Below, in pieces: positions 24,496-40,348 of a DNA stretch of 48,363 nt. Under the pieces are notes generated by a model, which did no database searches, was not told where the DNA came from, and saw nothing but the letters and a program-made list of their open reading frames with translations. The DNA lies in the NCBI GenBank assembly GCA_947626515.1, contig CANQSL010000005.1, positions 1 through 48,363 of the forward strand. The letters are read 5' to 3'. The DNA comes from an uncultured Bacilli bacterium (GTDB lineage Bacteria; Bacillota_I; Bacilli_A; RF39; UBA660). Every line of letters starts with the position of its first letter. The stretch's first letter is position 1. The position numbers were made by a program, and so were the translations under genes.

Positions 24496-25392
24496 ATGAA
24501 ACTTATAGAAAATGATTATAAAATAAAAAATCCTAAAATTACTGATAATATTAAATTAATTTCTATTACTGATATCCATAGTAATTATTATATCTTAGAT
24601 ATAATAAAAGAATTAATAAGTATAAATCCTGATTTAGTAATTGTTTCTGGAGATACAATAGATTCTATAGATAATCTTAATAATGATTTAATATTAGAAG
24701 CTTTTAAATATTTATCAAGTAATATTCCTACTTTCATATCATATGGTAATCATGATACAATAACATTTATCAATCATAAAGAAATTGATACACATAATGA
24801 AGAATTTTTTGATAAATTAAAAATACAAACTAATAGTATTATTCTTAATAATAGTTCTGAGCAATTTAAAAATTTAATTATAAAATCTTTTAATTTGCCT
24901 ACCGATAGTTGGTATGAAATTGGCGAGCCAAAAAACATGTTTATTGAAGAATTTACTAAAAATTATAAACCAGATAATTCTAAATATACAATATTATCAA
25001 GTCATTCTCCAAATGGATATTTAAATAAAAAAGGTAAAATAAATGAAGAATTACGTAAATTATTATCAGATACATTAATATTATCTGGTCATAATCATGG
25101 AGGATTAGTACCTAAACAAATTCAAAATTTGTTAAAAAATACTCCTATCAATGGTATAAGTTTAATTGGTCCATATTATAAATTATTTTTTAAAAATGCA
25201 TATGGATATTATAATACAGATAATACAAACTTAATTATATCTAATGGTATAACAAAATGGGCTGATCGTTATGGTGTTTTAGGAAAATTAGTAAATAAAA
25301 TTTTAATTCCAGAAATAGAAATTATAAATTTAGAAAATGGAGAAAATGACTTAAAATATAATGGATATAAAGTTAAAAAATTAATGAAATAA
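24496..25392 (+). CDS. calcineurin-like metallophosphoesterase
   Basis: TDIH, GDTID, GNHD, SHSP and SGHNHGG. Confidence 0.92.
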   Translation: MKLIENDYKIKNPKITDNIKLISITDIHSNYYILDIIKELISINPDLVIVSGDTIDSIDNLNNDLILEAFKYLSSNIPTFISYGNHDTITFINHKEIDTHNEEFFDKLKIQTNSIILNNSSEQFKNLIIKSFNLPTDSWYEIGEPKNMFIEEFTKNYKPDNSKYTILSSHSPNGYLNKKGKINEELRKLLSDTLILSGHNHGGLVPKQIQNLLKNTPINGISLIGPYYKLFFKNAYGYYNTDNTNLIISNGITKWADRYGVLGKLVNKILIPEIEIINLENGENDLKYNGYKVKKLMK

Positions 25393-25423
25393 ATTATCAT
25401 TATTAAAAAATATAGGGAAAAAG

Positions 25424-26080
25424 ATGCTTATGAAAAAACAAGTCAAAAATGCAAAAGTATATCATCCTAAGTGGAGTGATGATGGTCAAGAATGTAATTT
25501 TATCCCCCCAAAAATGAAAAAAATAATTATAGGTACAATGCCTCCTAAAAAGCTTTGCGTTAATAAAAAAGGAATAAAAATTTATAGTAATACTCATAAA
25601 AAGAATAATGTTGATTTTTTCTATGGTTCTACAAAAAATAAATTATGGAAAAAATTAAGTGAAATTTCTGGCAATGATAACATTGTTGATAATACAAAAA
25701 ACTTAGTCGATATAAGAAAAAATTTTTCCAAAAAATATCATATAGGATTTGCTGATGTTATTCAAAGTTGTATTCATAATAATAATTCATCATATGATTT
25801 AAACTTATTGAGTATTGAGCCTAATAAAACATTAATAAAAATATTAAAAGAATATCCAGATGTTAAAATTTTTTGTACTAGCAAAAATACTTTAAATTTA
25901 TTAAAAATATATTTTGTCAAAGAAATAAAAGAAAAAGAAAAAGATATTTATGAAGTTAAATTTAGAGGAATTAATCATTATTTTGAGATTTATACAATGA
26001 TAGCAGCAAGTGGAAGAGCAAAAAAAGATGATAAATACAACAATAAATTAAAAAAATTGTTATTAAATAAAGGAGAATAA
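25424..26080 (+). CDS. uracil-DNA glycosylase superfamily protein (MUG/HDG-like)
   Basis: IIGTMPP, FFYGSTKNKLW, IGFADVI...SSYD and AASG (usually PSPS). Confidence 0.7.
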   Translation: MLMKKQVKNAKVYHPKWSDDGQECNFIPPKMKKIIIGTMPPKKLCVNKKGIKIYSNTHKKNNVDFFYGSTKNKLWKKLSEISGNDNIVDNTKNLVDIRKNFSKKYHIGFADVIQSCIHNNNSSYDLNLLSIEPNKTLIKILKEYPDVKIFCTSKNTLNLLKIYFVKEIKEKEKDIYEVKFRGINHYFEIYTMIAASGRAKKDDKYNNKLKKLLLNKGE

Positions 26081-26360: not shown

Positions 26361-29300
26361 TTAATTGTTTTTGAAATCTATTAATTCAAAATCATTTTTA
26401 CTTATACTATAAGCAGATTTATCTGTTATAATTGTTGAATCTAAGAAGAATTTTACATCTACAGAGTATTTTTTGTTTAACTCGTCGATATAGTCTGTTA
26501 ATGGTTTGCTTGCTTCTGGAATAGATATTTTTATTTTTTGAAGCAAAGGATATTTTTTTTGAAGATTTTTTAAATCATTTTTTGTATTAGGACCTTGAAC
26601 ATAATAGTAATAAAATTTTAGTAACTCTTCACTTGTTTTTCTATGATCATCATTTGTATACCCTATAATCGTCCAAAAATGAATTTTATCAATCTCTTTA
26701 ATCTTCTTAGGATCCGTTTCTTCATCAAGGGCACAACGTCGATAATTTAGGTATTCTCGAAGAGACTTTAAGAATTCTTTTTTTGTCTTTCCTTGGCTTA
26801 ATAATTCGTGAATATCAGATAAGTGCTTATGTACGCCATTGTCACCACCTATCACGGATTCATTTACTTTTAATTCGATTAAGTATAAATCGGCTGTCTT
26901 CTCTTTTATACCAAAAAATATAGCATCAATTCTTCCTTTTTTATTTAAAATAAAATACTCTTGTTCAAAAGGATAAATTATTTGATTTTTAGATTCTTCG
27001 TTAGCTTTTTGTATTTTAAATTTAATTTCATCTTGAATCATAAATTGAAATTGATATATTTTTTCAACTTCTTCTTTGACAAGCTCAGTATATTTATCGA
27101 CTTTATCTTTCATTTTTGTAGTTATATTGTCTATATCATTAAAGCTTTCAAAATCTTTTATAGCGAATGATTTACCCTTTACAGTTTTAAAATCGGGTTT
27201 TGATATTTGATGAGCATTTAAATCTTTATCATATATTCTACTTCGAATTATTTCATACTCAATATTAGCAAGAGCTTGGATTTCAGTTTCAGTAAGCTTT
27301 TCTTTTTTACTTGAGTCAAAATTTATATGGTATATAATATAATCCTTAATTTCAATATATTCTTCTTTAAATTCTTCTGGATATTTATCTTTAATTGCCT
27401 TATTATCAACAAAATTTTCATCATCGCACAAGATATTTTGAATAGTTTCCTTTATTTCAGGTTGTTCACTAGATAATAAAGTATAAGAAAGAATATATTC
27501 TTTATTCCCATAATTTCTTCTTTTTTCTTGTTCTTCTTGTAAACGTTTCGTTAAGTTTTCTTCACTTAATTCTCCATAGTATGTATTGATATGTAATTTA
27601 GCATTTAGGTTCTTATCTCTTAAATTTTTTTCTAATGTTTCTTTTCGAGCTTGGGCAAAATTAAATAACATATTATCTAATTCTTTTTTTAAATCAGAAG
27701 ATAATTTATCACGTTTTTTTAACTTATACTCTTTACGATATTCAATATCGACTTTAAGAATTTGATGATTTTCCAAATGATTTAATATTTTATTAAGTCC
27801 AGCATGCTCTAGTTTAGATAAGTTTTCCTTGTATTTTCTTTCAATTTTAATACTACAATCTTCTTTATTGACTTTTAAAAGACCCTCTTCAAACATTTCT
27901 TGACGCATTTCTTTTATGTTATTTAAAATTTTTTCTTTTACTTCTTCTTCAAGATTCTTATTTAAGGAAGCGTCTTCTTCAACTGATTTAATCACCTTAT
28001 CTATAGAAGCTTTATTAAACTGAACAACATCATCGCTTACTTTTAAAGATTCCGGTTTTATTTCTAATACTTTTATTCCTTTGTAGTAAAGAATATCTCC
28101 TTTTTCACGAATTCTAATGACAAATTCTCTGTTTCCTTCTTCATCTTTTTTATTGGCAAAATATTTTCTTATTCCTTTTTGATTTTTCCATTCTAAATTT
28201 TCTTCCATACTTTTTTGTTTCCTTTCTACTACTAAAGTTTCACCATCGTCTATAGTGCATAAATTTTTCCCAAAAATCTTTTTTGCAATCTTATGGGATT
28301 CTTCTTTATTTTCTGTATGAATTACAATTACTTTATCAGGTTTTGTTATTTCACTTAATTTTTGCATCGCTTCTATGTCAGCATGACCAGAAGTATGAAT
28401 GAAGTAAGGTTTCATTTTCAATTCTTTCGTTAGATAATTATAAAAATCACGTAATTTAGAATCTTTCCAATCATCTTCTATATATCCGTCCCACATAGAG
28501 TATACTAAACAAGCATTCTTTATATGCTCACTATTTTTTCTAATATAACTTTCTGATGATTGTTTTAAGGATATAGCAAACTTTTGGTCCCATGGTAAAT
28601 CATAAATTATATTTTTAGCGTGATTAATATATCTTTGATGGGGTTCTTTTTTATTCTGATGGGGATTTACAAAAGTTTTAATATCAAGAAAAGTATTAGA
28701 GTTAGGAATATTTGGTAACTTTGATGTAATAGCATTCATGCATAAGTCTTCAATTAAGACATGACTATCTTTGACGGCTTTATAAATAGTAACAATTCTA
28801 TCAATGTTAGTACTAGAACACATAAAATATATTTGGTCATATTTTAAAGTTTCCTTAAAATCTTCTATTAAATATTTTTCGAACTTAGATTTACCTTTTT
28901 TTCTCGTTAATGTAGTTCCTTCTGTTATCAACAAATCAATTTTACCAATCTTTTTTAAGACTTGTTCAAAAAGAATTCCTTTTCTTCCATGATTACGATA
29001 ATCACCAGTATGTAAGACTTTTAAGTTATCTACTTCAATTAAAAACATAGCGGAATTATAACAAGAGTGATCAACAATATAAGGAGTAATAGTAATATCT
29101 TTTACATAGTATTTTTTTTCAAACTCAAAGAAATGAATATCAGGATTTTTTTCAGGTCGAATTTTTTTCTCATATTCATCGATAAATTCGCAGAGAACGT
29201 TATGAATCTCCATTCCCTTTTCTTCTAAATAAATAGGAACTCCCTTTTTTATTTTACTGACACAACCGATATGGTCACCATGAGAATGGGTAATGAAAAC

Positions 29301-29471
29301 CCCATCATAAGTAATATTTGGAGAATCATCTGTAAGTCCTTCAATTGACGTTTGCTCAGTATTATCGAGATTTTCTCCATAATCAATAATAATTTTTGTG
29401 CCCTTACTACTTTTTATTTCGGTAATACAGCCACCTATTTGGTTCGTTCCTTTTATAATCCTTACTTCCAC
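26361..29471 (-). CDS. RNase J-like MBL/beta-CASP hydrolase fused to a C-terminal PD-(D/E)XK nuclease-like domain
   Basis: THSHGDH, VDHS, HTGD, LITEGT, HTSGHA and VIH in aa 1-420; EQEY...RIDAIF...LIELK near the C-terminus; GTG start after AAGGAGG. Confidence 0.85.
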   Translation of the reverse strand: MEVRIIKGTNQIGGCITEIKSSKGTKIIIDYGENLDNTEQTSIEGLTDDSPNITYDGVFITHSHGDHIGCVSKIKKGVPIYLEEKGMEIHNVLCEFIDEYEKKIRPEKNPDIHFFEFEKKYYVKDITITPYIVDHSCYNSAMFLIEVDNLKVLHTGDYRNHGRKGILFEQVLKKIGKIDLLITEGTTLTRKKGKSKFEKYLIEDFKETLKYDQIYFMCSSTNIDRIVTIYKAVKDSHVLIEDLCMNAITSKLPNIPNSNTFLDIKTFVNPHQNKKEPHQRYINHAKNIIYDLPWDQKFAISLKQSSESYIRKNSEHIKNACLVYSMWDGYIEDDWKDSKLRDFYNYLTKELKMKPYFIHTSGHADIEAMQKLSEITKPDKVIVIHTENKEESHKIAKKIFGKNLCTIDDGETLVVERKQKSMEENLEWKNQKGIRKYFANKKDEEGNREFVIRIREKGDILYYKGIKVLEIKPESLKVSDDVVQFNKASIDKVIKSVEEDASLNKNLEEEVKEKILNNIKEMRQEMFEEGLLKVNKEDCSIKIERKYKENLSKLEHAGLNKILNHLENHQILKVDIEYRKEYKLKKRDKLSSDLKKELDNMLFNFAQARKETLEKNLRDKNLNAKLHINTYYGELSEENLTKRLQEEQEKRRNYGNKEYILSYTLLSSEQPEIKETIQNILCDDENFVDNKAIKDKYPEEFKEEYIEIKDYIIYHINFDSSKKEKLTETEIQALANIEYEIIRSRIYDKDLNAHQISKPDFKTVKGKSFAIKDFESFNDIDNITTKMKDKVDKYTELVKEEVEKIYQFQFMIQDEIKFKIQKANEESKNQIIYPFEQEYFILNKKGRIDAIFFGIKEKTADLYLIELKVNESVIGGDNGVHKHLSDIHELLSQGKTKKEFLKSLREYLNYRRCALDEETDPKKIKEIDKIHFWTIIGYTNDDHRKTSEELLKFYYYYVQGPNTKNDLKNLQKKYPLLQKIKISIPEASKPLTDYIDELNKKYSVDVKFFLDSTIITDKSAYSISKNDFELIDFKNN

Positions 29472-29473
29472 TT

Positions 29474-30208
29474 TTATATTTCCTCCTTAATAGAATGACT
29501 ATCGTAATTTACTTTATAACTCTTTATTGAAGTTACACCATTTTCAGCATTGTGTTCTAAAATAGTTAATATATTTTTATCTTCTCTTTTAGATAATAAA
29601 TATTTATTAGTATATTTACAAATTGTTTCATATTCCACAATGTCATTTAATTCAAGATTTTGAGTATTTGTATATTTAGCTTCTGCAATTAAAATTATTT
29701 GAACTTTACTTTTTTTCGCAAAATTAAAAAGTTTTTTAAGTACTATTTTTTTATTATAATTAGTCTTCTTTAAAAGAGCATCCAAAGTATTTATAATATA
29801 AATATCTCTTGCTTTTTTATTAACATCCTGATGATAGTCTAGCAAATAGTCTAAATAATCTTTAGAAATTATTTGTTTAATAAAATCCACCATTATTATA
29901 TCATGTTCCTGTAATAATTTTATAGCATAATCCAATCGTTTTATATCTAAGGAATCTTTATAAAGCTTACCTACTACTTCACAAGGATTAAAATAAGCTT
30001 CGACTTCATATTTATCAATTTGAGATATACTAGCGATTAAATTTTCTGTGAACCAATGGTTATTTCCATCAAAGTTAAAAATTTGTATACTTTTTTTATC
30101 ATTTATTCCATAATCACTAATAATTTTATAAATTAATTCCATTTTACCATTTAAAGGTTCTGATGCAACGACTGTTAAAGGTGTATAAATTTCTTTTAAT
30201 TCATTCAT
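29474..30208 (-). CDS. degenerate DnaB-like helicase C-terminal (RecA-fold) domain protein
   Basis: VVASEPLNGKM corresponds to IVAARPSMGKT; LFNFAKKSKVQIILIAE to LKxLARELxVPVIALSQ; LNDIVEYETICKYTNKYLLSKRE to LSDLRESGSIEQDADxVxFLYRD. Confidence 0.7.
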   Translation of the reverse strand: MNELKEIYTPLTVVASEPLNGKMELIYKIISDYGINDKKSIQIFNFDGNNHWFTENLIASISQIDKYEVEAYFNPCEVVGKLYKDSLDIKRLDYAIKLLQEHDIIMVDFIKQIISKDYLDYLLDYHQDVNKKARDIYIINTLDALLKKTNYNKKIVLKKLFNFAKKSKVQIILIAEAKYTNTQNLELNDIVEYETICKYTNKYLLSKREDKNILTILEHNAENGVTSIKSYKVNYDSHSIKEEI

Positions 30209-30210
30209 TT

Positions 30211-30900
30211 TTAAAACTCCTTTGCATTTTTATCAATTAAATCAAAAATTTCAGCATCATTAATAGTATCATCATTATATTCTGTTATTACTTTATAATA
30301 TTTCTTTATAAATTTTTTTAAAAGCATCATATCTTCTTCTTTTATATTAATTTTTCTATTCACTAATACTTGAGGATTATCTTTATCAACACTCATCATA
30401 ATCATATTATTATAATTAAGTTTCCCACAATCATTTTGAAAAAATAATATATTATCTCTATCAAGTGTATAGGAACAATAGAAAACTAAATTCATGGGTA
30501 AACCTGATTTTCTTTTACTTAAACTAGTACAGCCAAAATGATCATTTGTTTCATCAAAAAATATTTGTTTTGCTTCAAATTCTGGTATATCAGCATTCCA
30601 ATAATCTAATAATAATTTTTGATGTATTTTTACATATTCAATCACATTTTTAATATACAATTTATCATTTTTATTAATTTTTTTTAATTCTTCTAAAATT
30701 TTAATACTTTCTATATCAACTGTTAGAAATTTTTCTTGTTCCCAAATTTTAAATTTTATTTGTGGAATAAATCCTTTTAATTTTTCTTTTCCATTATAAA
30801 CTAAATATAAAACTATATTCATATATCTATCATTCTCAAACGATATGGTGGCTTTAAATAATTTGTTTGTCTTTTCTTCTTTTAATTTCATTTTTATCAT
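30211..30900 (-). CDS. hypothetical protein with two DUF4160-like repeats
   Basis: Two units, each ending in a helix of the type V..YVK.H..LL.DYWN / LKKFIKKY...I..Y; the second begins LSKRKSGLPMNL. Confidence 0.5.
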   Translation of the reverse strand: MIKMKLKEEKTNKLFKATISFENDRYMNIVLYLVYNGKEKLKGFIPQIKFKIWEQEKFLTVDIESIKILEELKKINKNDKLYIKNVIEYVKIHQKLLLDYWNADIPEFEAKQIFFDETNDHFGCTSLSKRKSGLPMNLVFYCSYTLDRDNILFFQNDCGKLNYNNMIMMSVDKDNPQVLVNRKINIKEEDMMLLKKFIKKYYKVITEYNDDTINDAEIFDLIDKNAKEF

Positions 30901-30907
30901 CCCATAA

Positions 30908-32959
30908 CTATTCTTGATATTTTCGCATTATCTCACTAAAAATTGTTGGGAATTTAGCTTTATACCAAGAAAATTTATATGTGATTAAAGTATAAGAAAT
31001 AATATGAGATTTTAAAGGTACATAACCTATATTTTCTAAGTTAGAAATATCTTCTCGGTAGACTTTTAAGTCTTTAATTAGTTCTTTATTTTTTGATAAA
31101 TCTTTAATTTTATCTGTTATACCATTACTATGTAAAAGACCAACTATATTAATTAGATCATCAAAGTTATGAGGTTTTATAATATTTATTATAGATTTAG
31201 CAAAATCATAGTCTAACTCAAACAAATCTTCTGTATCACCCTTATTTATTAAATCAAAAACATCTTTATCATTTAACGGTATATCAGATAATTTAACTTT
31301 AGTTAAATCTTCTAATTCTTTTATTATTGTAGGTAATCTATGTCCTAATATATCACATTTAATAATATTTGAATCAAGATCATGATAATCAAAATGTGTA
31401 CTTAAATAATTATATTTATTATCGTTATTGGGATAGTTACAAGGAGTAAAATCATATACTTCTTTGTCCTTAGGTATTAAAAATACTCCCCCAGGATGTT
31501 GACCAGTATGTTTTAATTTGCCTTCTAGTTTTTTTATTAATCGAGATTTTTCTTGTTTACTTATATCTAAATTCTTTTGAATAATCTTTTCTTCAGCACT
31601 AATAGCCTGCGTTAAGGCAATAGCTCCCGCTCTAATCGCATAATCTTTTCCCCAAAAATCAATTAAATAATTGATTAAATCTTTTTGAATACAATTAGCA
31701 AAATTAATATCAATATCTGGAATTTTTTCGACATTTGACCCAAGAAAATTATAATAAGGAATATTAAAGCCATCTTTTTTTAGTTCATTATGACATTTTG
31801 GACAATCTTTATTAGGCATATCTAATCCATAACTATAAATTAAAGTATTATCAAAATAAAATTTTTTACACTTTGTGCAATAATAATGAGGAGGAAGAGG
31901 ATTTATATTGGTAATACCAATTAAATAAGCAATAAATGATGAAGCAACACCACCGCGAACAAATGAAGGGTATCCCATATCATAAGACTTATCAACAAGT
32001 TTTTTAGATATTAAAAATAAAGATTCTGTATTAGTATTAATTATTCCATATTTATTAGAACTATCTTTACCATATAATTCTTCATGTATTCTATTTGTGA
32101 TAATATTCGGAACGTTTTCACCACATAATTCATTTATTTTTTTATTGATTATTCTTAATATTTTATTTTTACTATCTTTTATTTGAGGCAAATAACATTT
32201 ATCACTAAGTATTTTTATATCATTAATTAAACTTGCGAGTTTATTTGTGTTTTTAACAACTATGTCATAAGCTAAATCTTTATCTAAAAAGTTAAAGTCA
32301 TTTAACATTTCCTTAGTTGTCTTTAAATAACTAGCTAGTTTATTATCTTTAAAAAGCATTTTATAGTCGTCTTGTTCTTCTTTCTTTAAATAACAAACAT
32401 TACCTGTTGCTATAACAATTTTACGAACTTCTTTAGCAATATTTATTATTCTTTTCAAATAATTCTTATCTAAAGCTGAATTTACCTCAATAAAATCCCA
32501 CCATATTAAATCATCTTTAATTTGATAATCTTCTAAATTATCATATATATCTTCCATATAAGATAAATCTAAACCATATAATAATCCTTCACTTAAAAGA
32601 CCTAATTCATCTTTAGTTATAACTTGTTTTCCATATTTATCTAAATAAGTAGTTTTAATTTTAGTAATTATTCTATATAAGTTTTTTAATCCTTCTTGGG
32701 TTCTTACTAATATTGTAATTGGAATAATAGTATCAAATACAAGCATTTTTACAACAGTTCCATAAATAATCTTAAAATCAGTAATATTGTTAGTCTTTAG
32801 ATATTTCTCTATTTTAGGAAAATTATAAACATTATTAAAATCAGTAATAGCGACTCTATTTAAGCCTATACTTTTTGCATAGTTAATTAACTCTTTAAAA
32901 TTAATAATACTATCTTTAGTCATTTTAGTAAAAACTTTAAATTCTACTCTTTCTAACAT
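30908..32959 (-). CDS. minimal PolC-type family C DNA polymerase (degenerate PHP + palm/thumb + partial fingers)
   Basis: RGGVASS, PLPPHYYC..C, C..C..LKKDGFNIP, PDIDINF, GQHPGG, THFDYH and KCDILGH; 683 aa versus about 1430 for PolC. Confidence 0.9.
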   Translation of the reverse strand: MLERVEFKVFTKMTKDSIINFKELINYAKSIGLNRVAITDFNNVYNFPKIEKYLKTNNITDFKIIYGTVVKMLVFDTIIPITILVRTQEGLKNLYRIITKIKTTYLDKYGKQVITKDELGLLSEGLLYGLDLSYMEDIYDNLEDYQIKDDLIWWDFIEVNSALDKNYLKRIINIAKEVRKIVIATGNVCYLKKEEQDDYKMLFKDNKLASYLKTTKEMLNDFNFLDKDLAYDIVVKNTNKLASLINDIKILSDKCYLPQIKDSKNKILRIINKKINELCGENVPNIITNRIHEELYGKDSSNKYGIINTNTESLFLISKKLVDKSYDMGYPSFVRGGVASSFIAYLIGITNINPLPPHYYCTKCKKFYFDNTLIYSYGLDMPNKDCPKCHNELKKDGFNIPYYNFLGSNVEKIPDIDINFANCIQKDLINYLIDFWGKDYAIRAGAIALTQAISAEEKIIQKNLDISKQEKSRLIKKLEGKLKHTGQHPGGVFLIPKDKEVYDFTPCNYPNNDNKYNYLSTHFDYHDLDSNIIKCDILGHRLPTIIKELEDLTKVKLSDIPLNDKDVFDLINKGDTEDLFELDYDFAKSIINIIKPHNFDDLINIVGLLHSNGITDKIKDLSKNKELIKDLKVYREDISNLENIGYVPLKSHIISYTLITYKFSWYKAKFPTIFSEIMRKYQE

Positions 32960-32974
32960 TTTAATATCAACTCC

Positions 32975-33580
32975 TTAACATATATCTATAATATTATAGT
33001 TTTTATCATCAAATACAAATTTTAATGAATCATTTACTTTAGCGATTTTCCAATCTAAGAATTTATTTTTTAATTTACTATCCTCAGTAAATAAAATTAC
33101 ATAAGTATTATTTTTTTTACTATACTCTTCTATAGTTTTTTTAATCATTTTAATATCTTTATTTGATTCTTTTAAAAGTTTGTCAAAATCATCAATTATA
33201 ATGACATCATAAGATTCAATTGTATTTTTATCAAATATATAATCTAGCCAATCTTCATCAAAAACTTTATTGTTACTTATTACAATGTAAGATTTACGTA
33301 TCTTTTCTATAGCTAATACAAATTTATTATAATCAATTTTCTCTTTTGTTACTGCCTTTGTTTTTGCTCCTACTGGAAACATATAACTTTCTACAAGTTT
33401 AAAGTCTATTTTTGAAATTAAAGAGATTAAACGATTTACATAATAAGAAGAATTAAATATAAATGATTGCAAATAAATCTTTTTTTGTTCTCTTATTCCA
33501 TATACTTCTAGAATATTAATTAACAAAGGAATATGGTTGTTTAAGTTATCACTAAGGATAACAGAAATATTATCATTCAT
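32975..33580 (-). CDS. degenerate DnaB-like (RecA-fold) domain protein, Walker A lost
   Basis: NRLISLISKID, LAIEKIRKSYIVI, DVIIIDDFDKL and EYSKKNNTYVILFTE follow the DnaB C-terminal layout; paralog of 29474-30208. Confidence 0.65.
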   Translation of the reverse strand: MNDNISVILSDNLNNHIPLLINILEVYGIREQKKIYLQSFIFNSSYYVNRLISLISKIDFKLVESYMFPVGAKTKAVTKEKIDYNKFVLAIEKIRKSYIVISNNKVFDEDWLDYIFDKNTIESYDVIIIDDFDKLLKESNKDIKMIKKTIEEYSKKNNTYVILFTEDSKLKNKFLDWKIAKVNDSLKFVFDDKNYNIIDIC

Positions 33581-34352
33581 GAGTTTCTTCCTCTTTCAAT
33601 ATTCTGTCATCCTCAGCAAATTCAATAGGACAATCTTCATTAAAAAGATTAACAGTAGCTCCAATATGATTGTTATCTAAATCAATATTCGTAATAATAG
33701 CTTGAAGATTTTTAAAAGGACCAGTTAAAATCTTTACTTTATCTCCTTTCTTTACATCTTCAAACGGAGTATATACATCAATTGTTTCTTCTTGGCTATT
33801 ATTTCTAGTCTTTCTTATATTTGGCCAAACACCTAATCTAACATGATTAGATTTTACTAATGGAACATCATACCCATAAAAATACTTATTAATGCAATAC
33901 ATTTCGTATTCCGTAGATAAGCCATAAAGTACTGGAGCATCATAGCCAAAATAAGTTGTAGCACAAGATATATATTTTTGAACATCAGTAGAATCTTGAT
34001 GTTCTTTTAATAATTTACATTGATCAATAATATTATCTTTAGAATCTAGAAGCTCTGCAATAAAATCCATATCATAATCGGCAGGTGTAATAATGCCAAG
34101 AGACTCAGGAATAATTAAAGGTTCCTCACTATCTCGTACTTCTAAACCATAATAATACTTAACAATACAATATAAAATATACTTGGCATCTAAATCATAA
34201 TCACGACATGTATTAGCAAAAATAAGTCTATCGATATATTGTCTTACCCCCTTTCGATACTTAAACTTGCTTAATTCCTTTAATTGATCAACAATATTAT
34301 CCTTGCTATCAACTATTTTTTGAACATACTTAGATGAGCGTGCATAATTCAT
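33573..34352 (-). CDS. tandem-repeat protein with C-terminal NusG-type KOW domain
   Basis: KKGDKVKILTGPFKNLQAIITNID...VNLFNEDCPIEF; two DSKDNI.DQ...YCI.KY.YG repeats; start at 34352 after AAGGGAGG. Confidence 0.8.
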   Translation of the reverse strand: MNYARSSKYVQKIVDSKDNIVDQLKELSKFKYRKGVRQYIDRLIFANTCRDYDLDAKYILYCIVKYYYGLEVRDSEEPLIIPESLGIITPADYDMDFIAELLDSKDNIIDQCKLLKEHQDSTDVQKYISCATTYFGYDAPVLYGLSTEYEMYCINKYFYGYDVPLVKSNHVRLGVWPNIRKTRNNSQEETIDVYTPFEDVKKGDKVKILTGPFKNLQAIITNIDLDNNHIGATVNLFNEDCPIEFAEDDRILKEEETHE

Positions 34353-34475
34353 TAAAATTTTTCCTCCCTTCATTATATCAAGTATATCACTCTTTTTTTT
34401 ACACTTTTTAGGCGACAATAAAAAAAATATTATTTCCTTGTTTTTAAGAAAATAATATAGTTTTTGTAATTGCAT

Positions 34476-35504
34476 TTAATGAATAATATACCATTCATTT
34501 TTACTATAATCATAACCAATATTGCGATATAATTTATTGTAATCTATCATATATCTTTCAGCTTGTCTTATTGAAATATTAAATTCATTTGCTAAATTAC
34601 TAGTTTTTATAGTTTTTTTATTCTTCAAAAATTTATTTATAGCAGAAAGAATTTTAATTTTAGATGAAGAAAAATTTATTCTTTCAGTATTTAAAATATA
34701 ATCATAATACAATTCTGTTATTTCATAATCGTCAAGTATTTCACTAGCAAAATTAATATTAGTATATTTAATATAACTTTGCTTAATCTTTTCTTCATCC
34801 TCAGTAATAATATAAACTAAATTAAAATGATTAAATAATTTCCGATATTTTTTATCTATACTAAGACAATCTTTTACTTCTAAAAAATTATCATAAATCA
34901 ATAATAGAAAACCTTGCTTTCTTTGAAGATCAATAATATTTTTTACAGATTTAATATAAGGAAAATGAAAAAAGGTATGATTTTCATCTTCATATTTAGC
35001 AATATCTCTTTTATCAGTAAGAGAACCATTATAATTACCACATATGTAAACATTTCTACCTACATGGTCTAAGCCAATACTATTTTTATAGGGTTCTATT
35101 TTAATAAATGGATACTTATCCATATTTAATTTTTTTAATAATTCATTTTGTAATTTTAAAGCTTCATCATAAGATGCATTTTCTTTAGTACATAATATTC
35201 TTAATATTTTAGGATTTACATAAATAAATATTATTAAATCACATGGAACAATTTTATTACTAAATAAAGGGATTCCATTTTTTATTTCAATTAATTTTTC
35301 AAGAGATTTAACATCATTTTGATTCACATTAATATAACCATACTTAGCTATAAATAAATCATCTAATACTTTTTGATATAATTCGCCTGTTTTTAATTGA
35401 TATTTTAAACTATTAAAATCTATTCCAATAGTACCTAATATTAAAATACTTTTATCTGTATTTTTATTTAATACTTTTTTGATTTCTTTATACTCTTTAT
35501 TCAT
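34476..35504 (-). CDS. putative regulator: degenerate P-loop-like regions plus C-terminal winged HTH
   Basis: C-terminal LKNKKTIKTSNLANEFNISIRQAERYM...IGYDYSKNEWYI resembles HTH_11/WYL-type wHTH; SILILGTIG and LLLIYDN resemble eroded Walker motifs. Confidence 0.6.
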   Translation of the reverse strand: MNKEYKEIKKVLNKNTDKSILILGTIGIDFNSLKYQLKTGELYQKVLDDLFIAKYGYINVNQNDVKSLEKLIEIKNGIPLFSNKIVPCDLIIFIYVNPKILRILCTKENASYDEALKLQNELLKKLNMDKYPFIKIEPYKNSIGLDHVGRNVYICGNYNGSLTDKRDIAKYEDENHTFFHFPYIKSVKNIIDLQRKQGFLLLIYDNFLEVKDCLSIDKKYRKLFNHFNLVYIITEDEEKIKQSYIKYTNINFASEILDDYEITELYYDYILNTERINFSSSKIKILSAINKFLKNKKTIKTSNLANEFNISIRQAERYMIDYNKLYRNIGYDYSKNEWYIIH

Positions 35505-36530: not shown

Positions 36531-36567
36531 ATTTTTATTATTTTTTACTTGTAAGCAATTTATAATT

Positions 36568-36625
36568 CCTTATAAAACCTACTATTTACCACAGCAATTC
36601 TTATACTTCTTGCCTGAGCCGCAAG
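36568..36625 (-). repeat. second copy of the secA 3' end (att-like), synonymously diverged
   Basis: 48/58 nt identical to 37836-37893; both encode CGSGKKYKNCCGK* followed by TAGGTTTTATAAGG. Confidence 0.92.
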
Positions 36626-36885: not shown

Positions 36886-37488
36886 TTAAAATTTTTTTTC
36901 GTATATAAATGCTAGTTCTTTATTAACTTTTCCTAATTTTCCATATTCTTTATTTTCAATAATAGTTTGATAAACTTTTTTGCATCCAACGCTTTCATAT
37001 ACTCCATAACTACATGATTCATCAGTTAATATTTGAAGATTTTTCATATTGTCTTTTTTTGCTAAATCAAATACATCTAACAATAATTTTTTGCCTATGC
37101 CTCTTCCCCTATATGATTTATCCAAAATCAACATTGATAATTCACCATCAAAATAATCTCTCATATTATCAGGAACATAATCATAATTTTTTTCATATTC
37201 CTTTAAAGCATTAACATCTTTTATTTCTTTACTTTTATATAATAGCTTTTTAACAAAAGCATAAAATTTTTTCTTTAATATATGCTTTTTTGAGTTCCAT
37301 TTTGAATAACCTGCAAACCCCAACAATTTATTATTTTCCTTATAATAAACAAATTGTTCTGATTCTTCTAATATTTCTAATAGATAAATCCATGCACATA
37401 ATCTTCGACTGGCACCACTTTCAACTTCGCCTAAATCCCACTCATTTTCTAATAATTCTACAGCTCTCTTCATATCATTAAGTTTCAT
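36886..37488 (-). CDS. GNAT family N-acetyltransferase
   Basis: LDKSYRGRGIGKKLL acetyl-CoA motif; YESVG. Confidence 0.9.
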   Translation of the reverse strand: MKLNDMKRAVELLENEWDLGEVESGASRRLCAWIYLLEILEESEQFVYYKENNKLLGFAGYSKWNSKKHILKKKFYAFVKKLLYKSKEIKDVNALKEYEKNYDYVPDNMRDYFDGELSMLILDKSYRGRGIGKKLLLDVFDLAKKDNMKNLQILTDESCSYGVYESVGCKKVYQTIIENKEYGKLGKVNKELAFIYEKKF

Positions 37489-37689
37489 TTTTATCACCAA
37501 TTTTAATATTTACTTTTTTAATATTATATCATGAAAAAACAATGCTATAAATTTTTTTGTTAAATTTTATTGTCTTTTATAACTTTATTTCTTATTTATA
37601 CTTAATGAATCAAAAAACTTTACGGTAACACAAAAATATTCTTAATTACATAAAAAATCAGCACAATGCTGATTTACAATGTTATCATA

Positions 37690-37835
37690 AAATGTTCCCA
37701 TTGGGAAACCCTTGATTTTACGGGGTTTTTGGGCATTTTTGGGAACAAAATGAATTTTTTGTGCACATTTTGAGCACATTTTTCAATTTTTTGGGGTTTT
37801 TTTATGATTTTTTCAAAACCAAATGCCTCGTAAAC
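37690..37835. repeat. att-arm-like repeats downstream of secA
   Basis: TGTTCCCA/TGGGAAAC, TGGGAACA (37740), TGTGCACA/TGAGCACA and the AAACCCTTGATTTTACGGGGTTT inverted repeat. Confidence 0.6.
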
Positions 37836-37849
37836 CCTTATAAAACCTA

Positions 37850-40348
37850 CTACTTTCCACAACAATTTTTATACTTTTTACCACTGCCACAAGGGCATTT
37901 ATCATTTCTACCTATTTTTTTATCATTTCTTTTAGGACTACTTTTTAATGCTTCTTTAGTATCATTAGTACGTCCTTCTTTTCTAGTTTTATTAGAGATA
38001 CTTTGTTTTATTTGCATATGCAATAAGAAATTTGCTATTTGTTCATCTATTCCATCTTCCATCATTTCAAACATCTTAAAGCCTTCTAACGAATAAGCTT
38101 GTAAAGGGTTTGTTTGAGCATAACCTCTTAAACCAATTCCTTCTCTTAATTGTTCCATTGAACTAATTTGTTTTACCCATGCTTGATCTATAACTTTAAG
38201 AGAAATATGTCTTTCAAAATCATTTATAATTGCTTGAGGTATTTCCTTTACTTTTTTGTCTAATTCGTCAATTATAACATCTGATATTTTATCTGAAACT
38301 TCTTCTACAGTTTTGGATTTAATATCTTCAACAGTAATTTTTCTATTTCTAAGCATATTAGCATTTACATGAGCAACAATATCCTCATAATCTTTTTCTG
38401 TTAAATAATTCTCAGGAGGTATATGATTTTCTACTAATCTATCAATAAAATCCCTAATTATATCCAAAGATATTTCATGAACATTATCTGAATCAATTAA
38501 TTCATTTCTTCTTTCATAAATAATCTTTCTTTGTTGACTGACAACATTATCATAATCAAGTAAGTTTTTACGCATGTCATAGTTATTTCCTTCTACCTTT
38601 TTCTGAGCACTTTCAATTTGTTTTGAAAGAATTTTATTAGTAATTTCTTGATCTTCTGGATATCCTAATCTCTGTATAATATCTCTTACTTTTTCAGCTC
38701 CAAAACGTCTCATCAATTCATCTTCAAAAGAAATAAAGAATTGAGAATATCCTGGATCTCCTTGACGTCCAGCACGACCACGCAACTGATTATCGATACG
38801 ACGAGACTCATGTCTTTCCGTTCCAATTACACAAAGTCCTCCTAATTCGACAACACCTTCACCTAATTTAATATCAGTTCCACGTCCTGCCATATTAGTT
38901 GCTATAGTTATTGCTCCCTTTACACCAGCTTTGGCAATAATCTCTGCTTCTCTTGCATGGTTTTTTGCGTTCAATACTTCATGAGGTAATTTTTCTTTTT
39001 GTAACATTTTACTTAAACGTTCATTAGCTTCAACAGAAATAGTACCAACTAATATTGGTTGTCCAGTTTCATGAACCTTTTTAATAAACTCAACAATAGC
39101 TTTATATTTACCTTTTTCAGTTGAATACATTTTATCAACCATATCAATTCTTATACAAGGCTTATTTGTAGGAATTTCAATAACATACATATTATAAATA
39201 TCTCTAAATTCCTCTTCTTCTGTTTTAGCAGTACCCGTCATACCAGCAATCTTTTTATACATTCTAAATAAATTTTGAAATGTAATATTTGCTAAAGTCT
39301 GTGTTTCTTCATTTATTTTTACGCCCTCTTTAGCTTCTATAGCTTGATGTAATCCATCACTAAATTGTCTACCCTGCATTAATCTTCCTGTAAATTGATC
39401 TACAATTACTATTTCGCCTTCACTTGATACAACATAATCAACGTCAATTTTCATTCCATAATTTGCTTTTAATGCTTGATTTATATGATGAACTAATGCA
39501 GCATTTTCTATATCATATAAATTGCTTAATTTAAAATGCTTTTCTAATTTTTCTGATCCTTCTTCAGTTAAAAGTACAGATTTAGTTTTTTCATCTATTG
39601 TATAATCTTCTTCTTCTTTTAATGTTTTTACTGCTTTATCAGCATCTCTATATAAATTAGCTGAATTAAATTTTCCACCAGAAATAATTAATGGTGTTCT
39701 TGCTTCATCAATTAAAATTGAGTCAACTTCATCAATTATTACAAAATTTAATGGTCTTTGACATCTGTCCTCTTTTTTTACAACCATATTATCTCTTAAA
39801 TAATCAAATCCGACTTCATTATTTGTAGAATAAGTTATATCACAATTATAAACTTTTTGTTTTTCTTGTGGAGATAATTCTCTTAAATTGACACCAACAC
39901 TTATTCCTAAAAAATCAAAAATTGGACCCATCCACTCAGCATTACGGGCAGTTAAGTATTCATTAACTGTAACAACATGTACTCCTTCTCCAGTAAGTGC
40001 ATTTAAATAAGCTGGCAAAACAGTAGTTAAAGTTTTTCCTTCTCCTGTTTTCATTTCTGCAATATTACCATAATGTATTGCTAAACCTCCTAATAATTGA
40101 ACATAAAAAGGTTTTTCTCCAATCATTCTATATGCTGCTTCCCTAGCAGTTGCAAATGCAGGAACAATAATATCATCTAATGTTTTACCATTTTTTAATT
40201 CTTCTTTTAAAACATTAGTCATATTTGCTAAATCTTTATCACTTTTTTTAGAATATTCTTCATCTAAAGCTTCTATTTGATCTGCTATTTTTCTAAATCT
40301 TTTCAATTCTTTATATTCAGTATCTACTAATCTTTTTATAATTCCCAT
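37850..40348 (-). CDS. secA: preprotein translocase subunit SecA
   Basis: AEMKTGEGKT, IDEVDSILIDEARTP, ATNMAGRGTDI and SEC-C CPCGSGKKYKNCC. Confidence 0.99.
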   Translation of the reverse strand: MGIIKRLVDTEYKELKRFRKIADQIEALDEEYSKKSDKDLANMTNVLKEELKNGKTLDDIIVPAFATAREAAYRMIGEKPFYVQLLGGLAIHYGNIAEMKTGEGKTLTTVLPAYLNALTGEGVHVVTVNEYLTARNAEWMGPIFDFLGISVGVNLRELSPQEKQKVYNCDITYSTNNEVGFDYLRDNMVVKKEDRCQRPLNFVIIDEVDSILIDEARTPLIISGGKFNSANLYRDADKAVKTLKEEEDYTIDEKTKSVLLTEEGSEKLEKHFKLSNLYDIENAALVHHINQALKANYGMKIDVDYVVSSEGEIVIVDQFTGRLMQGRQFSDGLHQAIEAKEGVKINEETQTLANITFQNLFRMYKKIAGMTGTAKTEEEEFRDIYNMYVIEIPTNKPCIRIDMVDKMYSTEKGKYKAIVEFIKKVHETGQPILVGTISVEANERLSKMLQKEKLPHEVLNAKNHAREAEIIAKAGVKGAITIATNMAGRGTDIKLGEGVVELGGLCVIGTERHESRRIDNQLRGRAGRQGDPGYSQFFISFEDELMRRFGAEKVRDIIQRLGYPEDQEITNKILSKQIESAQKKVEGNNYDMRKNLLDYDNVVSQQRKIIYERRNELIDSDNVHEISLDIIRDFIDRLVENHIPPENYLTEKDYEDIVAHVNANMLRNRKITVEDIKSKTVEEVSDKISDVIIDELDKKVKEIPQAIINDFERHISLKVIDQAWVKQISSMEQLREGIGLRGYAQTNPLQAYSLEGFKMFEMMEDGIDEQIANFLLHMQIKQSISNKTRKEGRTNDTKEALKSSPKRNDKKIGRNDKCPCGSGKKYKNCCGK

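What the first reader, a model, noticed from the sequence alone, without database searches (positions are those of the whole stretch)
30908..32959. Half-size PolC keeps all three catalytic aspartates but lacks proofreading, OB and clamp-binding parts
Seen: the 683 aa ORF starts directly at the PHP domain, so the N-terminal and OB domains are missing. The DEDDh exonuclease insert is cleanly absent. PHP metal ligands are substituted (RVEFKVFT for RVELHxHT, TDF for TDH, GNVCY for GNVHY). The palm motifs PDID and KCDILG, both CxxC pairs and GQHPGG are intact. The protein ends just after the KSH..SY..YK fingers motif, with no HhH domain or QLSLF-type clamp motif. Several clean in-frame domain deletions with an intact active site suggest repurposing rather than decay. 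Inference: a non-processive, error-prone or template-independent nucleotidyltransferase.
Basis: partly seen in the sequence, partly recalled or inferred. Interest (0 to 1): 0.82.

Follow-up and report, generated by a model that had tools for sequence, protein, structure and literature searches.

The report
Half-size PolC inside a nuclease operon
This is a real, conserved gene for a stripped-down copy of the bacterial replicative DNA polymerase PolC, and it belongs to a rare, previously undescribed operon in uncultured gut bacteria in which the nuclease always keeps its active site but the polymerase-like protein often does not.

Summary
The ORF lies on the minus strand (30908-32959) and encodes a 683-aa PolC relative. 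It has a PHP domain with lost metal ligands, a palm, a thumb and part of the fingers. It lacks the N-terminal domain, OB fold, DnaQ exonuclease, duplex-binding domain and clamp motif. The genome also has a full-length PolC (ending QLSLF) and a DnaE.

The gene is not decaying: dN/dS is 0.19-0.20, it has a strong ribosome-binding site, and the family forms one clade.

It sits in a compact operon: HTH protein, KOW protein, DnaB-like RecA-fold protein without a Walker A motif, mini-PolC, a 229-aa protein, a second RecA-fold protein, and a beta-CASP metallo-beta-lactamase nuclease fused to a PD-(D/E)xK-like domain. I found the operon in 19 species-level genomes of uncultured gut Bacilli, mostly with different flanks.

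In 8 of 18 of those operons the mini-PolC has lost catalytic aspartates. The nuclease motif HxHxDH is intact in 24 of 24 nuclease ORFs.

So polymerase chemistry is dispensable for the family. The conserved role is more likely DNA binding or scaffolding for the nuclease. This window's protein keeps its aspartate triad, so weak distributive synthesis remains possible.

The parts
30908..32959 (-). Mini-PolC, 683 aa. It has a degenerate PHP domain, palm with Zn-finger cysteines, thumb and truncated fingers. Aspartate triad: D415, D417, D536. The fingers deletion junction R635|E636 lies at about 31055/31054.
32971..32976 (-). AAGGAG ribosome-binding site. It overlaps the stop codon of the upstream gene and lies 11 nt before the mini-PolC ATG.
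32975..33580 (-). 201-aa RecA-fold protein. It resembles the C-terminal domain of DnaB-family helicases but has no Walker A motif (pseudo-ATPase).
   Evidence: AF2 pLDDT 83.7. Foldseek top hit 3bgw_A, E 3.5e-7, TMq 0.59. No Walker A in 0 of 51 clusters or 0 of 27 ORFs.
33573..34475 (-). KOW-domain protein. The ORF is 300 aa, but orthologues are 253-273 aa, so the true start is probably a later Met. Two internal ~75-aa repeats precede the KOW domain.
   Evidence: Pfam KOW 28.2 bits against a cut-off of 22.3. NusG-family C-terminal hits below cut-off. Sequence read. Orthologues.
34476..35504 (-). 342-aa three-domain protein: a kinase-like P-loop fold with no lysine in the loop, a receiver-like alpha/beta domain, and a C-terminal winged HTH resembling that of CapW/BrxR. 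Probably the operon's DNA-binding regulator or sensor.
   Evidence: AF2 pLDDT 90.2. Foldseek partial matches 1y63, 7tb6, 7qfz. Weak PADLOC WYL-regulator hit at residues 282-339.
30211..30900 (-). 229-aa protein of unknown fold. Present in this subclade only (4 of 19 loci).
29474..30208 (-). 244-aa paralogue of the RecA-fold pseudo-ATPase (26-30% identical to the 201-aa protein).
   Evidence: Weak DnaB_C hit.
26361..29471 (-). 1036-aa double nuclease. The N-terminal part is a beta-CASP metallo-beta-lactamase with HSHGDH at residue 62. The C-terminal domain has an invariant D...ExK pattern (GRID...IELK). In other genomes it is split into two genes.
   Evidence: The PD-(D/E)xK assignment is by motif only; there is no Pfam or PDB hit.

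Best explanation
The gene encodes a PolC-derived accessory protein (mini-PolC). It is one subunit of a compact, translationally coupled operon whose constant enzymatic part is a beta-CASP metallo-beta-lactamase nuclease.

Mini-PolC keeps the PolC core that grips a primer-template: palm, Zn finger, thumb, and the invariant R335, N419, K650 and H652. It has shed everything that makes PolC a replicase: the N-terminal domain, OB fold, proofreading exonuclease, duplex-binding domain and clamp motif. In this lineage it has also lost a central piece of the fingers.

Across the family the catalytic aspartates are repeatedly lost, while the gene, the operon and the nuclease motif persist. I infer that the conserved job of mini-PolC is non-catalytic. 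It recognises or holds a DNA structure, probably a 3' end or primer-template junction. Together with the helicase-like RecA-fold pseudo-ATPase, it would position or license the nuclease on that DNA. The HTH protein would regulate the operon.

The system would act on foreign or damaged DNA. It is an accessory conflict or repair module, not part of chromosome replication. In this window's protein the triad is intact, so slow, distributive, clamp-independent addition of a few nucleotides is possible but not required by the model.

Shown: the anatomy, the family, the operon, purifying selection, loss of aspartates in relatives, and conservation of the nuclease motif. Inferred: DNA-end binding, partnership with the nuclease, and the biological role.
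For: **Anatomy:**

**A separate replicative set exists:** full-length PolC and DnaE in the same genome and in four other module-bearing genomes.

**Selection:** dN/dS is 0.19-0.20 in three pairwise comparisons, against 0.075-0.16 for flanking genes.

**Family:** one clade of 21 rows, SH-aLRT 99, outside the clade of the host family's PolC.

**Operon:** found in G008, G145, G179 and G339 and in 19 species-level loci. Of the 19 loci:
- mini-PolC in 18
- beta-CASP nuclease in 17
- a RecA-fold protein in 17
- a KOW protein in 14

**Catalytic contrast:** the triad is intact in 10 of 18 and lost in 8 of 18 operons, and lost in 7 of 20 clusters. HxHxDH is intact in 24 of 24 nuclease ORFs, including every operon with a dead triad.

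**Subdomain loss:** fingers or thumb deletions occur in several lineages.

**Accessory status:**
- Different flanks in most genomes.
- Absent from 14 of 15 same-genus genomes.
- The HTH protein occurs full-length in 3 of 400 other genomes of the order.
Against: - No binding, DNA-recognition or nuclease activity was tested.
- The three most distant lineages with an intact triad (P0013, P0014, P0016; 44-49% identical) all keep all three aspartates. This hints that metal binding is selected in part of the family, including this one.
- No PADLOC defence model matches.
- The flanks are mostly housekeeping genes rather than a defence island.
- The roles I assign to R335, K650 and H652 rest on motif conservation and recalled knowledge of C-family polymerases, not on a structure examined here.
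- L053 has the operon without mini-PolC. L046 and L057 lack the RecA-fold protein. The parts are therefore not strictly interdependent.
Confidence: 0.5

Rival explanations
1. In this organism the protein is an active, non-processive, low-fidelity or template-independent nucleotidyltransferase, and that catalysis is what the operon needs. One example would be gap filling after resection by the beta-CASP nuclease. Another would be translesion synthesis resembling the ImuA-ImuB-DnaE2 mutasome, with the RecA-fold pseudo-ATPase in the place of ImuA.
For: - The triad D415/D417/D536, N419, GQHPGG and the Zn-finger cysteines are intact.
- The triad is kept in 10 of 18 operons, including distant ones.
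- The degenerate PHP domain and absent exonuclease match the pattern described for the error-prone DnaE2 (PMC12926913, passages read).
- ImuA1 and ImuA2 are RecA relatives without Walker motifs (same paper, section 20).
- Another short exo-less PolC-like gene (L073/L074) lies beside IMS_C-domain and AAA_25/DnaB_C proteins.
Against: - About 50 residues of the fingers are deleted.
- Pro replaces the nucleotide-positioning Phe, and RGG replaces RGS.
- There is no duplex-binding domain. PMC8373059 counts that domain as part of the C-family catalytic core.
- There is no clamp motif and no Y-family or ImuB-like gene in the operon.
- Eight of 18 sister operons work without the aspartates.
- The NCBIfam error-prone polymerase model scores 83 bits against a cut-off of 939.
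Confidence: 0.3
2. The operon is the replication module of a cryptic integrated mobile element (satellite, integrative plasmid or prophage remnant). Mini-PolC and the DnaB-like proteins would be its degenerate polymerase and helicase or helicase loader.
For: - Sporadic distribution and varying chromosomal sites.
- A large serine recombinase and a collagen-repeat protein lie 1-3 kb downstream in G179.
- Phage C-family polymerases also conserve PHP through fingers, with a divergent C-terminus (PMC3201878, passages read).
Against: - No integrase, att repeats or tRNA bound the operon in the window.
- There are no structural or transfer genes.
- No relatives were found in the viral contig scan for the polymerase or in phage records for the HTH or RecA-fold proteins. 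Phage hits to the polymerase are only ~30% identical, the level of ordinary PolC.
- A replicon cannot run on a helicase without a P-loop and, in half the cases, a polymerase without its aspartates.
- The composition matches the host.
Confidence: 0.08
3. The gene is a decaying duplicate of polC with no function.
For: Many domains are lost, the PHP ligands are lost, and the aspartates are lost in relatives.
Against: - dN/dS is about 0.2.
- Intact frames of 632-748 aa in 20 of 20 aligned clusters and 18 loci.
- 74 invariant columns across the family.
- A strong ribosome-binding site.
- A conserved operon position.
Confidence: 0.03

Closest known systems
Replicative PolC (PolC-type DNA polymerase III alpha; G. 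kaustophilus 3F2B, and this genome's own 1511-aa PolC)
   Same: - Clear homology over PHP, palm, thumb and fingers (E 2.8e-95; 32-39% identity to the genome's own PolC).
- Aspartate triad, PolC-type Asn after DxD, four Zn-finger cysteines and GQHPGG.
   Different: - Lacks the N-terminal domain, OB fold, DnaQ exonuclease insert, duplex-binding domain and clamp motif.
- At least five PHP metal ligands are replaced.
- About 50 residues of the fingers are missing.
- Scores 491.6 bits against the 873-bit cut-off of NF001688.
- It is an extra copy beside PolC and DnaE.
Exonuclease-less PolC of Clostridia and Negativicutes (about 6% of PolC sequences in Timinskas et al. 2014, PMC3919608; passages read)
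   Same: PolC lineage without the DnaQ insert. Such ~1040-1170-aa proteins are the next-best hits after the mini family.
   Different: - Those keep the OB and HhH domains (Pfam columns).
- They group with canonical PolC in the trees.
- The same paper states that PHP, Pol3 and (HhH)2 are nearly universal and the aspartates absolutely conserved in the C family. Neither holds for the mini family.
DnaE2 (ImuC) in the ImuA-ImuB-DnaE2 mutasome
   Same: An accessory C-family polymerase with a degenerate PHP domain and no proofreader, encoded next to a RecA-fold protein that lacks ATPase motifs (PMC12926913).
   Different: - This one is PolC-derived, not DnaE-derived.
- There is no ImuB or Y-family gene.
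- No ImuA or DnaE2 model reaches its cut-off.
- The RecA-fold protein looks like a DnaB C-terminal domain.
- A nuclease is the constant partner.
- The aspartates are often lost, which I have not seen reported for DnaE2.
Phage C-family polymerases with a divergent C-terminal region (Kazlauskas and Venclovas 2011, PMC3201878; passages read)
   Same: Conservation runs from PHP through the fingers and stops there.
   Different: - Those are replicases of phage genomes, and about 1000 aa or longer (length recalled, not checked here).
- No close phage relative of this family was found.
Inactivated polymerase paralogues (ImuB and inactivated Y-family proteins; PolX proteins with a dead polymerase site)
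   Same: A polymerase fold kept as a non-catalytic subunit while a partner or a second domain does the chemistry (PMC12926913, passages).
   Different: A different polymerase family. I found no report of inactivated C-family members in the passages read or in the listings of four searches.

Membership tests
PolC-type DNA polymerase III alpha (NCBIfam NF001688 / TIGR01405) | Whole-protein score at or above the curated cut-off | tested here: not met
   491.6 bits against 873, and 450.8 against 1043.45
PolC-type DNA polymerase III alpha | DnaQ-type DEDDh exonuclease inserted in the PHP domain | tested here: not met
   No PF00929 hit. Aligns without a break to the exonuclease-deleted 3F2B construct. 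Gap opposite host residues ~395-575.
PolC-type DNA polymerase III alpha | N-terminal domain and OB fold before the PHP domain | tested here: not met
   The protein starts at host residue ~303 and the frame is closed 5 codons upstream.
PolC-type DNA polymerase III alpha | C-terminal duplex-binding (HhH)2 domain and clamp-binding motif | tested here: not met
   Ends ~140 aa before the host C-terminus, which carries QLSLF. No PF14579 hit.
PolC-type DNA polymerase III alpha | Catalytic aspartate triad, with Asn rather than Asp two residues after DxD | tested here: met
   D415, D417, D536 and N419. The PolC-specific Asn is described in PMC3919608.
C-family DNA polymerase core (PHP + Pol3 palm/thumb/fingers + duplex-binding domain) | PHP and Pol3 domains above the Pfam gathering scores | tested here: met
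   PHP 48.5 against 26.4; DNA_pol3_alpha 126.9 against 23.9; finger 57.3 against 22, but only profile positions 2-105 of 166.
C-family DNA polymerase core | Complete fingers and duplex-binding domain, counted as part of the catalytic core in PMC8373059 | tested here: not met
   ~50-residue fingers deletion and no duplex-binding domain.
DnaE2 / ImuA-ImuB-DnaE2 mutasome | DnaE2-type polymerase with ImuA and ImuB (Y-family-like) genes alongside | tested here: not met
   NF004225 scores 83.3 bits against 939. No ImuA, ImuB or IMS hit in seven operon proteins.
Known anti-phage defence systems (PADLOC-DB 2.0) | Any operon protein matching a defence-system model | tested here: not met
   Of 10 proteins, only a weak WYL-regulator hit (E 8.3e-4) to the HTH protein.
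DnaB-family replicative helicase (for the 201-aa neighbour) | RecA-fold C-terminal domain with Walker A and B motifs, plus an N-terminal domain | tested here: not met
   The fold matches. There is no Walker A in 0 of 51 clusters, and at 201 aa there is no N-terminal domain.
beta-CASP metallo-beta-lactamase nucleases (RNase J / CPSF73 / Artemis class; for the 1036-aa neighbour) | HxHxDH motif and MBL plus RMMBL domains | tested here: met
   Lactamase_B_2 33.8 against 27; RMMBL 24.4 against 21.6. HSHGDH at residue 62. RNase J, Integrator 11 and CPSF73 hits in the PDB. The DNA or RNA substrate was not tested.

The most novel reading that the evidence does not exclude
The operon is a new kind of conflict system built from disabled replisome parts. 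A PolC-shaped protein and a DnaB-shaped protein have both lost their chemistry in many lineages. They would act as sensors or baits that recognise foreign replication intermediates, or phage proteins that hijack PolC or DnaB. They would then release a beta-CASP / PD-(D/E)xK double nuclease. A KOW protein and a CapW/BrxR-like HTH protein would couple the system to transcription.
Probability: 0.2. Interest if true: 0.88.

Novelty: new variant of a known kind. Interest (0 to 1): 0.72.

Why it matters
C-family polymerases are treated as four groups (PolC, DnaE1-3) in which the PHP, polymerase and (HhH)2 domains and the catalytic aspartates are essentially universal. Surveys discarded truncated or active-site-less sequences by design (PMC3919608, PMC12926913).

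This finding shows a selected, monophyletic lineage of half-size PolC proteins that breaks those rules. It sits in a conserved operon with a nuclease. In about half of the operons examined it has become a pseudo-polymerase.

The profile search also turned up about two dozen further short, exonuclease-less PolC-like proteins from other lineages. The phenomenon may therefore be wider than this family.

It gives a concrete, testable case of a replicative polymerase fold recruited to a non-replicative, possibly non-catalytic role. It also defines an uncharacterised multi-gene system in the reduced genomes of uncultured gut Bacilli.

Tried and rejected
**Split replicative PolC.** Rejected. No exonuclease, OB or HhH domain is found in seven neighbouring proteins, and a complete PolC lies elsewhere in the genome.

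**Recent duplicate of the host polC.** Rejected. The mini clade lies outside the clade of the host family's PolC.

**Prophage or plasmid origin.**
- PHROGs gives only generic polymerase and antiterminator hits.
- The viral contig scan found nothing.
- Phage tblastn hits are ~30% identical, like ordinary PolC.
- Plasmid hits are full-length PolC genes, for example the 1339-aa gene of pJM1A.
- The HTH and RecA-fold proteins have no phage match.

**Searches that returned nothing useful.**
- Profile searches of the RecA-fold, HTH and nuclease C-terminal alignments against PDB sequences gave nothing significant.
- The ESM Atlas look-up of the 229-aa protein gave only sub-threshold hits to unnamed viral clusters.
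- My by-eye guess that the 218-aa protein at 25424-26080 is a uracil-DNA-glycosylase relative got no Pfam support. I drop it.

**Complex prediction of mini-PolC with the 201-aa protein.** Verdict 'no answer' (score 0.00). This is not evidence either way.

**The look-up of sequencing runs.** No RNA holder is listed. DNA holders are rabbit-gut and gut metagenomes from 3 studies. It says nothing about expression.

**Context of other short PolC-like proteins.**
- Three viral scans and one metagenome scan found nothing.
- The second metagenome scan returned mostly ordinary PolC, plus L073/L074.

**Tree caveats.**
- The tree is FastTree with long branches. I use it only to say that the window's family is a separate clade.
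- I did not run an AU test on whether the fingers deletion arose once.

**Rows left out.**
- P0005, P0012 and P0020 (partial or near-duplicate) were left out of alignment A1.
- G035 and G040, which show 'short' frames, are full-length PolC genes read through TGA codons. I did not count them as short forms.

- Evans et al. 2008 (the PolC structure paper, PMC2634937) is not held. The role of the deleted fingers segment is therefore inferred.
- Supplementary files of papers were not opened. Supplementary tables of PMC3919608 and PMC12926913 could list short PolC-like sequences that I did not see.
Full report
**What is there.** The window is one whole contig (C5) of a 1.37-Mb, 24% G+C metagenome-assembled genome read with the standard bacterial code. 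The ORF at 30908-32959 lies on the minus strand and encodes 683 residues. Its frame is closed five codons upstream. An AAGGAG site lies 11 nt before the ATG and overlaps the stop of the preceding gene. Pfam finds a PHP domain, the Pol III alpha palm domain and the first 105 of 166 positions of the finger domain, and nothing else. The NCBIfam PolC models are the best hits but reach only about half their cut-offs.

**Comparison with PolC.** The closest solved structure is G. kaustophilus PolC (E 2.8e-95). The protein aligns to that exonuclease-deleted crystal construct without a break. The same genome holds a 1511-aa PolC ending in QLSLF and a ~950-aa DnaE. Against its own PolC, the short protein:
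- starts at residue ~303;
- lacks the ~180-residue exonuclease insert;
- ends ~140 residues early, so the duplex-binding domain and clamp motif are gone.

The triad D415/D417/D536, the PolC-type N419, four cysteines and GQHPGG are present.

- The fingers carry an in-frame deletion of about 50 residues at R635|E636. Relatives P0006 and P0007 (77% identical), and all more distant members except one group, still have this segment. The G008/P0017/P0018 group has an even larger gap.
- I mapped the residues that PMC12592400 names as shaping the nucleotide pocket (Y1274, F1276, Y1284; passages read) through the PDB alignment. The two tyrosines are kept, but the phenylalanine is Pro648.
- The RGS of PolC is RGG here.
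- Five of 20 family members also lack about 35 residues of the thumb region.

**It is a family under selection.**
- A length-restricted search gave 23 clusters of 547-748 aa at 40-87% identity, followed by ordinary or exonuclease-less PolC at about 30%.
- In a maximum-likelihood tree of 51 rows, the short proteins form one clade (21 rows, SH-aLRT 99). It lies outside the clade that holds the PolC of the host's own family.
- Pairwise dN/dS between the window, G145 and G179 is 0.19-0.20. Every operon gene scores 0.14-0.43 and three flanking genes score 0.075-0.16.
- A profile search of 1.84 billion representatives found four representatives of this family at 864-1014 bits, then a drop to 592 bits or less.
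- Among the best 150 hits there are also about two dozen other proteins of 700-930 aa. They begin at the PHP domain, lack the exonuclease, and end at or soon after the fingers. Several have degenerate catalytic motifs.
- In a FastTree these other proteins are separate long branches, not members of the window's clade.

**The operon.** The gene is the fourth of seven tightly packed minus-strand genes.
1. A 342-aa protein. Its confident model (pLDDT 90.2) shows a kinase-like P-loop fold, a receiver-like domain and a C-terminal winged HTH. The HTH superposes on those of CapW and BrxR at 2.1 Å over 65 residues.
2. A KOW-domain protein.
3. A 201-aa protein. Its model (pLDDT 83.7) matches the RecA-fold domain of DnaB-family helicases (3bgw, E 3.5e-7). 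It has no Walker A motif in any of 51 clusters or 27 ORFs.
4. Mini-PolC.
5. A 229-aa protein of unknown fold.
6. A 244-aa paralogue of the RecA-fold protein.
7. A 1036-aa protein with an N-terminal beta-CASP metallo-beta-lactamase domain. Its C-terminal domain has invariant GRID...IELK residues that fit a PD-(D/E)xK nuclease by motif only.

The HTH and RecA-fold families are small (37 and 51 clusters). They carry no Pfam domain, and many members sit on contigs of the same lengths as the mini-PolC contigs.

**Distribution.**
- Among 40 relatives only G008 has a short form.
- The segment from about 24.4 to 37.8 kb has no counterpart in 14 of 15 same-genus genomes.
- The HTH protein is found full-length in 3 of 400 other genomes of the order.
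- A pattern scan of 185,579 species representatives gave 25 loci. Nineteen have a full-length HTH gene, and all nineteen come from uncultured gut Bacilli or Tenericutes-labelled MAGs.
- Composition of those 19 loci: mini-PolC in 18; the beta-CASP nuclease in 17 (one locus is cut by a contig end); a RecA-fold protein in 17; the KOW protein in 14; the PD-(D/E)xK-like domain in 6; the 229-aa protein in 4.
- Flanking genes are shared only within four small groups of loci. Where identified, they are housekeeping or unrelated genes.
- No integrase, tRNA or bounding repeat marks the operon in the window.

**The decisive contrast.** Ten of the 18 operons have the full aspartate triad and eight have lost one to three aspartates. 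Among protein clusters, 7 of 20 have lost them. G008, with NIN...N, has the complete operon. The nuclease motif HxHxDH is intact in 24 of 24 nuclease ORFs, including all operons with a dead polymerase site. In the dead-triad members the residues next to the lost aspartates (P414, I416, N419) persist. So do R335, the four cysteines, K650 and H652. The family therefore conserves the PolC scaffold, and probably its nucleic-acid-binding surface, but not polymerase chemistry. The nuclease is the constant enzyme.

**Interpretation.** I read mini-PolC as a PolC-derived DNA-binding or scaffold subunit of a nuclease-centred accessory system. Polymerase activity is optional across the family. The window's lineage keeps the triad, and so do three distant lineages. 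This argues that metal binding still matters in part of the family. However, the lost fingers segment, Pro648, and the missing duplex-binding and clamp elements would make any synthesis slow and distributive.

The closest functional parallel is the ImuA-ImuB-DnaE2 mutasome, which also pairs an accessory C-family polymerase with a RecA relative lacking ATPase motifs (PMC12926913). Another short PolC-like gene (L073/L074) does lie beside IMS_C and AAA_25 proteins. This operon, however, has no Y-family component and centres on a nuclease. A defence role is suggested by the sporadic, relocating distribution, the nuclease effectors and the CapW/BrxR-like HTH. It has no direct support.

**Literature.**
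- Timinskas et al. 2014 report exonuclease-less PolC (6%) in Clostridia and Negativicutes. They state that PHP, Pol3 and (HhH)2 are nearly universal and the aspartates absolutely conserved. They removed fragments lacking an intact active site (passages).
- The 2026 survey keeps four C-family groups and discarded truncated sequences before building trees (passages).
- Four full-text searches gave no listing that describes a half-size or inactivated PolC.
- Supplements were not seen.

**Verdict.** The protein is a new architectural variant of the C family, inside an undescribed operon.

Noticed in passing
window 36563-36625 and 37831-37893: A 63-nt direct repeat (81% identical) duplicates the 3' end of secA, covering the SEC-C motif codons, the stop codon and bases beyond it. 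The two copies flank the GNAT acetyltransferase gene at 36886-37500. This looks like the scar of a small insertion at the secA 3' end. In many same-genus assemblies the contig breaks right beside secA.
   Followed up: partly
L065:9836-18685 (genome G432): A reduced version of the operon (229-aa HTH protein, KOW protein, beta-CASP nuclease, PD-(D/E)xK-like protein) has no mini-PolC or RecA-fold gene. It lies directly upstream of that genome's only full-length PolC, 1542 aa.
   Followed up: partly
proteins P0224, P0288, P0298, P0338, P0341, P0344, P0353, P0295, P0246, P0268 and others: These are other lineages of 700-930-aa exonuclease-less PolC-like proteins. They start at the PHP domain and end at or soon after the fingers. 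Several have degenerate DxD or third-Asp motifs. They are not in the window's clade. Their gene contexts could not be fetched.
   Followed up: partly
L073:684-14362 and L074 (metagenome contigs, 48-50% G+C): An exonuclease-less PolC-like ORF of up to 937 aa lies next to three kinds of DNA-repair-type genes: a divergent IMS_C (Y-family little-finger) protein, an AAA_25/DnaB_C RecA-fold protein, and AddAB-like helicase-nuclease genes. This is a possible PolC-based analogue of the Imu mutasome.
   Followed up: partly
L058-L060, L064, L061: Divergent operon versions replace the KOW gene with a 438-457-aa protein whose C-terminal part matches the RecA-fold family. In L061 the mini-PolC ORF (881 aa) also matches the RecA-fold profile, which looks like a fusion.
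   Followed up: no
window 33573-34475 (-): The KOW protein has two internal ~75-residue repeats before the KOW domain, each beginning SKDNI(V/I)DQ. It has no recognisable NGN domain, so it is not an ordinary NusG paralogue.
   Followed up: no
G008:C1:55223-55874: G008 carries the divergent operon on contig C22. It also has an 82%-identical DNA match to the 229-aa gene on another contig. G008 is listed with 10% contamination, so this may come from a second organism.
   Followed up: no
window 24496-26080 (+): Two plus-strand genes sit between the operon and the conserved LysR gene: a calcineurin-like metallophosphoesterase and a 218-aa protein with no family hit. They are absent from the otherwise syntenic G145 locus.
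   Followed up: no
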